The notes beneath the pieces are model-generated. The model was not told the DNA's origin, ran no database searches, and saw only the letters and a list, made by a program, of their open reading frames with translations. Positions 28,606 to 30,887 of a stretch of 64,000 bases of DNA are shown in pieces. The stretch is taken from NCBI RefSeq assembly GCF_009914755.1, contig NC_060938.1, one strand, 5' to 3'. Source of the stretch: the human T2T-CHM13v2.0 reference genome, Homo sapiens. Numbering within the stretch: the first letter of the stretch is position 1; each line of letters starts with the position of its first letter. The translations under genes were made by a program, and so were the position numbers.

Positions 28606-29672
28606 CTGCCAAACTCTTTTGCAAAGTGGTTTTACAATTTTATGTTCTAACAGTATAAATATTTCAGTTCCTCCATTTCCTTGCCAACATTTGGCATGCT
28701 CAATCTTTGAAAATTTAGACATTTTAATAGGCATATAGTAGTGTCTCTGTGCAGTTTTGGTTGGCATTTCTCTACCAACTAATGATGTTGAACATTTTCT
28801 CACTGCTCATTTTCCTTTCCTGTATCTTACTTAGTTATCTGTCTGTTCAAATCATCTGACAATTTGTTATTGAGTTTTTTGTTGTCTTATTTTTGAATAT
28901 TGGCTGCTTTTTATGGATTCTGAATCACATATTCTTTACCAGATATGTGGTTTACAAATGTTTTCCCCATATGTAGACTGTCATTTCATTCCATTACCAG
29001 TGTAATTCAAAATCCAGAAATCTCCAAATTTGAGAAATTCAATTTATGATTTATTTGTTATACATCATACTATCATATATAAGAACCCAAGGCCCAAAAT
29101 ATTTTTTTCTTCTAAAAGTTTTATAGTTATAAACTTTACATATTGATGTGATCATTTTGAGTTCATTTCAAAAAATGATATGAGACCTGGATCAAAGTTT
29201 ATATTATATCATATCCACAGCAAATTATTACACCTGTGTTGGTCAATTAACCATATATGTGTAGGTCTATTTTTGAGCTCTATTTTGTTTCATTGATCTA
29301 TTTGTCTAAACTGATGCCAGTACCAAACCTCTTGAATACAGTAAGTTTATGATAAGACTTAAATTCAGGAGTGTAAGTTCAGCAAAGTTGTCCTTCATTT
29401 TCAAAGTACTTTGAAATGAATTTTAGAGTCAATTTGTCATTTTTACCAAACAAAAAACTTGTACTAGAATTATAATTAAAGTTCTGTTGAATCTATTGAT
29501 CAATTTAAAGAGAATTTTCAAGTTAACAATATTGAGCCTTCTGGCCCATAAACACAGTACAGGTATTTCTCTCCACTTATTTATATCTTCTTAAGTTCTC
29601 TCAGCAAATTTTAAAGTTTTCAGTGCAGAGCTCTTGTTCATTCATTGTCAGATTTGTGTCTTAAAATTTCAC

Positions 29673-29771
29673 AGCACTCCCCTTGACAAGGATGGAAGAG
29701 GCCCTTGGGCCTGACAACATGCATACGGTAAAGGCATTGCCACCTACTTCGTGGCATCTAACCATCGTTTT
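29673..29771 (+). pseudogene. RNU6ATAC: U6atac snRNA retro-pseudogene, 5'-truncated (lacks about the first 25 nt)
   Basis: agcactccccttgacaaggatggaagaggcccttgggcctgacaacatgcatacggtaaaggcattgccacctacttcgtggcatctaaccatcgtttt matches the U6atac sequence as I recall it, with about 3 substitutions; it sits inside an L1 fossil with no snRNA promoter context. Confidence 0.95.
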
Positions 29772-29772
29772 A

Positions 29773-30066
29773 GGTTGGACATGGTGGCTCACGCCTGTAA
29801 TCCCAGCACTTTGGGAGGCCGAGGCGGGCGGATCACCCAAGGTCAGGAGTTTGAGACAAGCCTGGCCAACATGATGAAACCCCGTCTCCACTAAAAATAC
29901 AAAAAATTAGTCTGGCGTAGTGGTGCATACTTGTAATCCCAGCTACTTGGGAGGCTGAGGCAGGAGAAACTCTTGAACCTGGGAGGCAGAAGTTGCAGTG
30001 AGCCAAGATCACCCCACTGCACTCTAGCCTGAGTGACAGAGCAAGACTCCATTAAAAAAAAAAAAA
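29773..30066 (+). mobile_element. AluSx-like, full length, directly fused behind the U6atac copy
   Basis: ggttggacatggtggctcacgcctgtaatcccagc...gcaagactccatt plus A-tail. Confidence 0.95.
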
Positions 30067-30887
30067 CAACTCATACTCTGATTCAGTTCTACATGGTATT
30101 TTTTAATTTCAACTTCCAGTGGTCTGTTGCAAGTATATACACATAGGATTGATTTGTTTGTATAATAGCCTTGTATTCTGATAAACACAGTTATTAGCTT
30201 AAGTTGCTTTTCTTAGATTCCACAAAATTTTCTAAACAGAAAATTAATGACAATGCTGTTTCTTCTTTTGCAAATAGGAATTTATTTTATTTACCTTTTT
30301 CTTATTTTGATGCCTAGAAATACTAATAATATGACAGACATAGTGAGAAAAAATATTGTATTTTTTCCCAAATTGTAAAAGGAAACAACCATTCAGTCTT
30401 TTATCATCAAGTATGATGTTAATGTAGATTTTTTTATGGCTGTAATTATCAAATTTAGGAACTTTACTTTGATTTCTAGTTTAATGAAATGTTTGTTTGT
30501 TTTTTTTTTGTTGTTGGCATGTATGTGTGTCTATCAGAAATGGACACTGGATATTAACAAATGCTGTTTTGTGCATGCGTGGAAATGATCTCTTTCTGTT
30601 TTTACTCTCTTACTGTGCTGAAATGCATTGATTTTCAAATATTAAACTAACCAGTTATGTCTTTAAAAATAAGCTCCTTATAAAGTGCATGAAGGAGAAA
30701 AGAGAAATATTCCCATTAGAATAAGGTAGAGCAGTTTAACCCAGTTTTTACTTTCATGTTCGAGATAAAGTAAAATTAACTTGAAATCATACAGTTAAGA
30801 ATAGACATAGTTATATTTCGCTACTACATCAAAAGAGTTTCAGTTTCCGGGTCCAGGTCACTTAATTTATAATCATAGCAAATCAGA

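What the first reader, a model, noticed from the sequence alone, without database searches (positions are those of the whole stretch)
29661..30075. U6atac snRNA-Alu retrotransposition chimera
Seen: about 99 nt of U6atac 3' sequence ends in exactly four Ts, then one A, then nucleotide 1 of a full-length AluS with an A-tail. There is no poly-A and no TSD between the two parts. An L1-endonuclease-type TT/AAAA site lies just upstream (29661-29666), and a weak, diverged TSD candidate (aaaatttcaca / aacaactcata) brackets the whole unit inside an L1M fossil. Established: U6-L1, U6atac-L1 and U6-Alu chimeric retrocopies exist, attributed to template switching by L1 ORF2p or to RNA ligation at the cyclic-phosphate oligo-U end, and usually have about 4 Ts at the junction. 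Inference: this was one insertion of a fused minor-spliceosome snRNA and Alu RNA. It is atypical because the snRNA is 5'-truncated (lacking the catalytic AAGGAGA box) while the Alu is complete.
Basis: partly seen in the sequence, partly recalled or inferred. Interest (0 to 1): 0.8.

Follow-up and report, generated by a model that had tools for sequence, protein, structure and literature searches.

The report
Known U6atac–Alu fused retrocopy
A dead, 5'-shortened copy of the minor-spliceosome RNA U6atac is joined head-to-tail to a complete Alu element inside an old L1 fossil, most likely pasted in as one piece by the L1 machinery, and this very locus was already listed in a 2015 survey.

Summary
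Window 29673-29771 is U6atac nt 26-124 (Rfam 84.7 bits; 96 of 99 bases match the real gene). It ends in four Ts, then one A (29772), then a complete Alu (29773-30053) with a 13-A tail (to 30066).

The locus is annotated RNU6ATAC28P. It matches row 26 of Supplemental Table 1 of Doucet et al. 2015 ("U6atac-Alu, 294, no TSD, 25-125, extra A"). Those authors suggested two independent insertions.

My evidence favours one insertion, at about 0.75:
- Three of 19 U6atac pseudogenes with an intact 3' end have a same-strand Alu within 0-2 nt; I expect about 0.01 by chance.
- Clear two-step loci keep a 28-29 nt A-rich spacer, which this locus lacks.
- The flanks are one L1 fossil, with nothing missing and about 7 surplus bases, which fits a short target duplication.
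- A TT/AAAA site sits at the 5' edge.
- The U6atac half is not older than the Alu half.

Weak points are that the duplication matches only 7 of 11 and that no primate orthologues could be searched. No sibling copy exists. A 5'-truncated U6 joined to a full Alu on the same chromosome (28.98 Mb) is a parallel case.

Verdict: real, already known, modest interest.

The parts
29473..29672 (-). Upstream flank: old L1 fossil, on the minus strand relative to the window
   Evidence: 187 first-look candidates genome-wide, 40 scored, 69-79% identity; aligns to profile positions 4-185 of 15 paralogues (112 bits); window 28705-28991 matches the L1 parts of L013 and L015 in antisense.
29661..29666 (+). TT/AAAA, an L1 endonuclease-type target site (nick on the bottom strand)
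   Evidence: Read directly. It counts as the cleavage site only if the 10-11 nt duplication reading is right.
29663..29673 (+). Candidate 5' copy of the target-site duplication. The last A could equally be U6atac nt 26 (1-nt microhomology).
   Evidence: matches 30065-30075 at 7 of 11; both copies map to the same profile positions (about 178-188) of the L1 paralogues.
29673..29771 (+). U6atac snRNA retrocopy, gene nt 26-124, ending in T4 (29768-29771). It lacks nt 1-25.
   Evidence: RF00619, 84.7 bits; 97% identity to the gene; 1 of 89 non-CpG differences, 2 of 5 CpGs lost.
29772..29772 (+). Single extra A at the junction
   Evidence: The same feature is noted as 'A*' in Doucet 2015 Supplemental Table 1 row 26.
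29773..30053 (+). Complete Alu body, starting at Alu nt 1. The AluS type is my recollection of diagnostic positions.
   Evidence: two Metazoa_SRP partial matches; full-length alignment with 70 Alu copies; 19 of 235 non-CpG differences from their majority base; 6 of 22 CpGs retained.
30054..30066 (+). A-tail of 13 As. 29773-30066 is 294 nt, the length printed by Doucet et al.
30065..30075 (+). Candidate 3' copy of the target-site duplication, overlapping the end of the A-tail
30076..30266 (-). Downstream flank: continuation of the same L1 fossil
   Evidence: window 30079-30239 aligns to profile positions 193-362 (69 bits); colinear upstream and downstream hits in the paralogues.

Best explanation
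This is a single L1-mediated retrotransposition event that copied two Pol III RNAs in a row.

Proposed sequence of events (steps 1-4 are inferred from the anatomy; none was observed):
1. L1 ORF2p nicked the bottom strand at TT/AAAA (29661-29666) inside an old L1 fossil.
2. It primed on the A-tail of an Alu RNA and copied the Alu to its very 5' end.
3. It then continued on the 3' oligo-U end of a U6atac snRNA. I give about 0.5 to a template switch. The alternative is that the two RNAs had been ligated beforehand (about 0.25).
4. It stopped at U6atac nt 26, and the cDNA end was joined to the target, possibly through a 1-nt A microhomology.

The product is U6atac(26-124)-T4-A-Alu-A13, bracketed by a short and now badly decayed target-site duplication.

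The extra A may be a non-templated base added at the switch. It may instead be the 3' mono-A that immature U6atac carries. The copy has no promoter and no catalytic 5' region, so it was inert from the start.
For: 1. Direct junctions are far commoner than chance.
- One search gave 36 U6atac matches in this genome, and one search examined 30 of them. Nineteen are pseudogenes that keep the 3' end.
- Three of those 19 have a same-strand Alu starting 0-2 nt after the T-run: L016, L022 (this locus) and L028.
- About 1.3 million Alus (figure from PMC13174262, passage) in 3.117 Gb gives about 0.01 expected for 19-20 loci. This is my own arithmetic.

2. One of the three, C3:57659823, is a TSD-verified chimera. 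Its duplication matches 12 of 14. It is row 30 of Doucet's table (14-nt TSD).

3. Loci that read as Alu insertions into the A-tail of an older U6atac pseudogene look different. L024 and L032 keep 28-29 nt of A-rich spacer between the T-run and the Alu. L019 also has a 22-nt spacer, but its duplication could not be read. This locus has 1 nt.

4. The flanks form one continuous L1 fossil with nothing missing.
- The upstream flank ends at profile position 185 and the downstream flank resumes at 193.
- After in-silico removal of 29673-30066, 14 nt remain between those positions. The 15 paralogues have a median of 7 (values 0, 6, eight of 7, four of 8, and 13).
- That is about 7 surplus bases, as a short duplication around the whole composite would give.

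5. A canonical TT/AAAA site lies at the 5' edge.

6. The U6atac half is not older than the Alu half. Non-CpG differences are 1 of 89 against 19 of 235 (Fisher p 0.019), or 13 of 235 counting only private changes (p 0.12). CpG loss is 2 of 5 against 16 of 22 (p 0.29). The TSD-verified chr3 chimera leans the same way, 3 of 111 against 13 of 230 (p 0.28).

7. A parallel exists for major U6: its last 35 nt (33 of 35 identical), a T9 run and a full Alu at C14:28983972-28984001.

8. Template switch versus ligation. RtcB ligation needs a 2',3'-cyclic phosphate and a 5'-OH. It gave 0 of 26 full-length products with a 5'-triphosphate acceptor (PMC6789731, passages). A complete Pol III Alu RNA carries a 5'-triphosphate (established knowledge).
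Against: - The duplication is poor: 7 of 11, with four of the positions being As beside an A-tail. Other U6atac composites show 12 of 14, 15 of 16 and 14 of 15. One of the 15 paralogues (L057) also has 13 nt in the same interval, so a length surplus can arise in other ways.
- An outer duplication is predicted equally by both two-step models, so it does not separate them from a single event.
- The raw divergence difference (p 0.019) could mean the U6atac half is younger than the Alu.
- Doucet et al. 2015 examined the locus, found no TSD and suggested two events.
- According to the same paper, U6/Alu chimeras were not reproduced in cell-culture assays.
- In published U6 and U6atac chimeras the snRNA is full length in nearly all cases (table; passage). 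Here it is truncated.
Confidence: 0.75

Rival explanations
1. Two events, U6atac first. A 5'-truncated U6atac/poly(A) processed pseudogene was inserted with the outer duplication. Later an Alu landed exactly at the T4/A(n) boundary of that pseudogene, which is itself a good TTTT/A endonuclease site. The Alu left almost no duplication of its own, so only one A remains between the two parts.
For: Alus do land in U6atac A-tails. Two or three of the 19 pseudogenes (L024, L032, perhaps L019) show that arrangement. The T-run/A-tail boundary resembles the L1 endonuclease consensus. Doucet et al. favoured two events for this locus. The outer duplication is explained equally well.
Against: The clear two-step loci keep a 28-29 nt A-rich spacer, which is the Alu's own duplication. 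Here the spacer is 1 nt, which would need an Alu insertion with a duplication of 1 nt or less at one exact position. This model also needs U6atac to be at least as old as the Alu, yet the U6atac half is the less diverged one.
Confidence: 0.12
2. Two events, Alu first. An ordinary AluS was inserted with the outer duplication. Later a 5'-truncated, perhaps mono-adenylated, U6atac cDNA was captured without a duplication, exactly between the Alu's 5' duplication copy and Alu nt 1. This would be an endonuclease-independent, break-repair type of insertion.
For: The U6atac half looks younger than the Alu: non-CpG 1 of 89 against 19 of 235, p 0.019. There is no poly(A) and no duplication of its own around the U6atac piece.
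Against: It needs a rare duplication-free insertion to hit one exact base position next to an Alu, in the same orientation. My rough prior is about 1e-5 per U6atac insertion. The divergence difference drops to p 0.12 when only private Alu changes are counted. The same direction is seen in the TSD-verified chr3 chimera. Three direct U6atac-Alu junctions among 19 loci argue for a shared mechanism.
Confidence: 0.05
3. A single insertion, but the two RNAs were ligated before reverse transcription. In this RtcB-type model the U6atac 2',3'-cyclic-phosphate end is joined to a 5'-OH. The acceptor would be an Alu-containing longer transcript cut one base upstream of the Alu, which would make the extra A a templated base from the source locus. 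This is a sub-variant of the best explanation, and its probability is counted inside the 0.75.
For: RtcB joins U6 to L1 and to other RNAs, and the authors extend the model to U6atac, which also ends in a cyclic phosphate (PMC6789731, passages). The junction has exactly four Ts, the commonest form in that work.
Against: It needs a cut exactly one base upstream of Alu nt 1. A Pol III Alu RNA carries a 5'-triphosphate, a poor substrate that gave 0 of 26 full-length products. The chr18 junction also has extra A or As, which is more easily explained from the snRNA side.
Confidence: 0.25

Closest known systems
Doucet et al. 2015 (Mol Biol Evol 32:1815, PMC4476161), Supplemental Table 1 row 26 'U6atac-Alu'
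   Same: Everything printed there fits this locus: U6atac positions 25-125, a 294-nt Alu (window 29773-30066 is 294 nt), an extra A at the junction, and no TSD called. In my genome scan this is the only U6atac copy at 90% identity or more that starts near nt 26.
   Different: The table prints no coordinates, so the identity rests on these features. The authors read it as probably two events. I favour one event, from the L1-paralogue reconstruction and the survey of junctions.
U6atac-Alu chimera with a 14-nt TSD (Doucet row 30; C3:57659823-57659949, loci L005 and L016)
   Same: A U6atac 3' end joined directly to the 5' end of a same-strand Alu, with an A-tail, inside one duplication.
   Different: There U6atac is almost full length (nt 2-122), the duplication is clear (12 of 14), there is no extra A, and the Alu starts at its second base.
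U6/L1 and U6atac/L1 chimeric pseudogenes (Buzdin 2002/2003 and Garcia-Perez 2007, recalled and not readable here; Moldovan 2019, PMC6789731)
   Same: The snRNA oligo-T end is joined to a retrotransposed RNA in sense orientation, with one poly(A), one duplication and an L1 endonuclease site. Five of the 19 U6atac pseudogenes seen are followed directly by sequence I recognise as L1.
   Different: The partner here is a complete Pol III Alu rather than a 5'-truncated L1, and the snRNA itself is 5'-truncated.
Alu/LINE-1 chimeric insertions (Cell Genomics 2026, PMC13174262)
   Same: Bipartite insertions made in a single event, involving Alu RNA and the L1 machinery (passages).
   Different: In those the Alu sits 5' of an L1. 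The paper's main text has no occurrence of U6atac; its supplements were not opened.

Membership tests
U6atac snRNA (Rfam RF00619): derived sequence | Covariance-model score above the gathering threshold | tested here: met
   84.7 bits against a threshold of 33. The 3' stem-loop region aligns without gaps.
U6atac snRNA (Rfam RF00619): functional gene | Complete 5' region with the catalytic AAGGAGA box (nt 1-25) | tested here: not met
   only gene nt 26-124 are present. The bases upstream align to the L1 profile. This is a truncated pseudogene.
L1-mediated chimeric retrocopy (snRNA joined to a second RNA) | The snRNA oligo-T 3' end is joined directly, in the same orientation, to the second retrocopied RNA | tested here: met
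   T4, one A, then Alu nt 1, with no poly(A) or duplication between them.
L1-mediated chimeric retrocopy (snRNA joined to a second RNA) | One poly(A) tail at the 3' end of the composite | tested here: met
   A13 at 30054-30066.
L1-mediated chimeric retrocopy (snRNA joined to a second RNA) | One target-site duplication bracketing the whole composite | tested here: inconclusive
   The match is 7 of 11. About 7 nt are surplus relative to 15 L1 paralogues. Doucet et al. called no TSD.
L1-mediated chimeric retrocopy (snRNA joined to a second RNA) | L1 endonuclease consensus at the first-strand nick | tested here: met
   TT/AAAA at 29661-29666, on condition that the 10-11 nt duplication reading is right.
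L1-mediated chimeric retrocopy (snRNA joined to a second RNA) | Both parts appear on the same branch of the primate tree | not testable with these tools
   No primate genome other than the window's own assembly can be searched here.
Alu SINE | Dimeric 7SL-derived body of about 280 nt with an A-tail | tested here: met
   Metazoa_SRP partial matches for both arms; full-length alignment with 70 copies. The assignment to AluS is recalled, not tested.

The most novel reading that the evidence does not exclude
The lone A at the junction here, and the one or two As at the older chr18 U6atac-Alu junction, may be the footprint of a 3'-monoadenylated U6atac. That species is a processing or decay intermediate normally trimmed by USB1. 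It has a 3'-OH rather than a cyclic phosphate, so it cannot be an RtcB substrate.

If so, snRNA-Alu chimeras arise by ORF2p template switching onto immature snRNA. That would be a different route from the ligation route proposed for U6/L1 chimeras. Fossil junctions would then record the 3'-end state of the snRNA that was captured.
Probability: 0.2. Interest if true: 0.5.

Novelty: already known. Interest (0 to 1): 0.25.

Why it matters
The finding has little importance by itself, because the locus is an inert and already catalogued pseudogene.

Its value is as one of very few natural snRNA-Alu junctions. I found three for U6atac and at least three for U6 in this genome. These junctions bear on how L1 ORF2p joins two Pol III RNAs.

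A complete Alu acceptor with a 5'-triphosphate, plus an extra A, fits template switching better than RtcB ligation. The paralogue-based rebuilding of the empty site revises a published "no TSD, probably two events" call towards a single event.

Tried and rejected
- Sibling copies of the junction. A 140-nt query across the junction and the last 21 nt of U6atac with up to 2 mismatches (12 matches, 0 in the reversed control) found no second copy of this junction. The one new place, C13:24403879, is a chance match inside another repeat. C2:182228483 is an old U6atac followed by non-Alu sequence.
- A full-length U6atac. Infernal's alignment of model positions 1-25 to 29656-29672 was rejected, because those bases align to the L1 paralogue profile.
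- A duplication for the Alu alone. By eye, the U6atac 3' end and the downstream flank match at about 9 of 14 with one gap. I rejected this because the downstream bases are L1-fossil sequence.
- Dating the two halves. The numbers are too small to decide. The majority-base reference built from 70 mixed Alu copies inflates the Alu count; 6 of the 19 differences are common variants.
- A duplication for the chr18 composite. Only a weak candidate follows a long purine microsatellite.
- Pfam on the flank. The call was not accepted because the translation has stop codons. The L1 identity was shown by DNA comparison instead.
- Papers. Buzdin 2003 and Garcia-Perez 2007 are not held, so what I say of them is recalled. 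A search for RNU6ATAC28P found 0 papers.
- The pattern for major-U6/Alu junctions gave 5 matches and 0 in the control. Two of them (L091, L094) are plain Alus with a chance flank match.

Full report
**What is there**

Window 29673-29771 is a retrocopy of U6atac snRNA.
- Rfam RF00619 scores 84.7 bits against a gathering score of 33, E 2.7e-20.
- The real gene in this assembly lies at C9:146378159-146378291 on the minus strand. Its nt 26-124 align to the window at 97%. The three differences are two CpG transitions and one other change.
- Infernal's global alignment reached back to 29656. Those 17 bases belong to the surrounding repeat and not to U6atac.

The copy ends in four Ts (29768-29771). 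A single A follows (29772). Base 1 of an Alu follows at 29773.
- Both arms of the Alu give partial Metazoa_SRP matches.
- Its A-run is 30054-30066.
- The mir-1268 and mir-3135 matches lie inside the Alu, below their gathering scores, and are Alu-derived noise.

**It is already in print**

The hub's table names the U6atac part RNU6ATAC28P.

Doucet et al. 2015 (PMC4476161) write in their section on snRNAs associated with retrotransposons (passage) that only two U6atac copies are associated with Alu.
- One is flanked by a 14-base TSD.
[quoted passage not shown] They take this to suggest two independent events.

Their Supplemental Table 1 lists row 26 as "U6atac-Alu, 294, TSD na, 25-125, A*".
- Window 29773-30066 is exactly 294 nt.
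- In my scan this is the only U6atac copy of 90% identity or more that begins near nt 26.
- The table prints no coordinates, so the identification rests on these features.

Row 30 (full length, TSD 14, cleavage TCTTT-AT) is C3:57659823.

A full-text search for RNU6ATAC28P found no paper.

**One event or two: the junction survey**

BLAST with the real gene gave 36 matches in the genome. I examined 30 of them and saw one more later (L088). The other five are short 5' fragments of U6atac.

Of the 30, one is the gene, 19 are pseudogenes that keep the 3' end, and 10 are 3'-truncated.

Among the 19:
- Five are followed directly by sequence I recognise as L1. The name is recalled; Doucet lists five U6atac-L1 copies.
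- Three have a same-strand Alu within 0-2 nt of the T-run. These are L016 (chr3), L022 (this locus) and L028 (C18:22315666-22315792, an 86%-identical full-length U6atac with "AA" before the Alu).
- Three have an A-rich spacer of 22-29 nt and then a same-strand Alu (L019, L024, L032).

About 1.3 million Alus (PMC13174262, passage) in 3.117 Gb gives about 0.01 expected chance abutments for 19-20 loci (my arithmetic). Three were observed.

L024 and L032 show what a two-step history looks like.
- An outer duplication matches 15 of 16 and 14 of 15.
- An A-rich stretch of 28-29 nt, the Alu's own duplication, separates the U6atac T-run from the Alu.
- In L032 a CpG-rich young Alu sits beside an 84%-identical U6atac.

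The present locus has 1 nt where those loci have 28-29 nt.

**One event or two: rebuilding the empty site**

Both flanks belong to one old repeat. In 15 paralogues the matches to the two flanks are colinear and nearly adjacent.

Window 28705-28991 matches the L1 parts of two U6atac-L1 chimeras in antisense. The fossil is therefore an L1 on the minus strand.

A profile of the 15 paralogues gives the following:
- The upstream flank aligns through profile position 185, at window 29670.
- The downstream flank picks up at position 193, at window 30079.

After in-silico removal of 29673-30066 the window keeps 14 nt between these positions. The paralogues have 0, 6, eight of 7, four of 8, and 13, with a median of 7.

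So no fossil sequence is missing and about 7 nt are surplus. The last bases before U6atac (ending TTTCAC) and the bases after the tail (CTCATA) map to the same profile positions. That is what a short target-site duplication around the whole composite would leave.

With the TT/AAAA site at 29661-29666, the duplication would be 10-11 nt (29663-29673 against 30065-30075).

It matches only 7 of 11. Four of those positions are As beside an A-tail, and one paralogue also has 13 nt in that interval. I therefore treat the duplication as probable, not proven.

An outer duplication is also predicted by both two-step models. It argues against separate duplications for each part, not against two steps as such.

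**One event or two: relative age**

| Part | Non-CpG differences | CpGs lost |
|---|---|---|
| U6atac half, this locus | 1 of 89 | 2 of 5 |
| Alu half, this locus | 19 of 235 (13 private; 6 are common variants or consensus artefacts) | 16 of 22 |
| U6atac half, chr3 chimera | 3 of 111 | 3 of 5 |
| Alu half, chr3 chimera | 13 of 230 | 16 of 21 |

The U6atac counts are against the gene. The Alu counts are against the majority base of 70 copies.

Fisher tests for this locus give p 0.019 (19 of 235), p 0.12 (13 of 235) and p 0.29 (CpG). The TSD-verified chr3 chimera leans the same way, with p 0.28 for non-CpG.

The data do not show different ages. They do speak against the model in which U6atac is the older part. 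They give slight support to "Alu first". That model, however, needs a duplication-free capture at one exact base next to an Alu.

**Mechanism**

I favour one TPRT event. All of the following steps are inferred.
1. A nick is made at TT/AAAA.
2. Priming occurs on the Alu A-tail.
3. The Alu is copied to its 5' end.
4. Synthesis continues on the U6atac 3' end.
5. It stops at nt 26, and the end is joined to the target. The A at 29673 could be either target or U6atac, which gives a 1-nt microhomology.

For step 4 there are two options.
- Ligation. Moldovan et al. 2019 (passages) show that RtcB ligation needs a 2',3'-cyclic phosphate and a 5'-OH. It gave 0 of 26 full-length products with a 5'-triphosphate acceptor.
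- Template switch. A complete Pol III Alu RNA has a 5'-triphosphate (established knowledge), so a template switch fits better.

U6 and U6atac are frequently monoadenylated when USB1 is deficient, and Usb1 preferentially removes that A (PMC6265477, passages). U6 tails can be adenylated (PMC5855946). [quoted passage not shown] The junction A could be such a tail or a non-templated addition, and I cannot tell which.

Three direct U6-Alu junctions for major U6 have T6, T8 and T9 and no extra A. These are two full-length U6 copies at L092 and L095, confirmed by Rfam, and one 35-nt U6 tail at L093. The pattern search was exact, so these counts are lower bounds.

**The 5' truncation**

The 5' truncation is unusual. 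Doucet's table lists all other sense U6 and U6atac chimeras as full length or 3'-truncated. L093 shows the same architecture for U6, so the truncation is a rare outcome and does not define a new kind.

**No propagation**

No second copy of this junction exists in the assembly.

**Verdict**

- The single-insertion reading is probable (about 0.75) but unproven without orthologues.
- The element is inert.
- The locus and its peculiarities are already published.

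Noticed in passing
L028 (C18:22315666-22315792, minus strand) and downstream: This is a third, older U6atac-Alu direct junction. It has a full-length U6atac (86% identity; Rfam 96 bits), a T5 run, 'AA', and then an Alu-like left monomer. A T-rich stretch, a second monomer and a long (AAAG)n/(GGGA)n microsatellite follow. 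It falls below the 90% identity cut-off of Doucet et al. Only a weak duplication candidate was found.
   Followed up: partly
L093 (C14:28983972-28984001, minus strand): The last 35 nt of major U6 (33 of 35 identical to the L092 copy), a T9 run and a complete Alu sit next to another Alu's tail. This is a 5'-truncated snRNA plus full Alu, like the finding. The duplication is A-rich and unclear.
   Followed up: partly
L031 (C2:7600333-7600440): A U6atac truncated at nt 109 is followed by 23 nt of unknown origin, a same-strand Alu and a complex tail. A 15-nt direct repeat (14 of 15, read by eye) brackets the whole. It may be a tripartite single insertion.
   Followed up: no
L033 (C16:76663870-76663948) and L037 (C1:147945574-147945652): Two 3'-truncated U6atac copies (nt 1-79) have identical flanks on both sides. 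They are therefore one insertion copied by a segmental duplication, not two insertions.
   Followed up: no
window 29908-29959 and 29976-30035: The mir-1268 and mir-3135 covariance-model matches lie inside the Alu and are far below their gathering scores (42.5 against 83; 25.4 against 80). They are Alu-derived look-alikes, not microRNA genes.
   Followed up: yes
L002/L011 (C9:146378159-146378291, minus strand): The real U6atac gene ends in a run of 13 Ts. An antisense Alu starts about 20 nt downstream of it.
   Followed up: no
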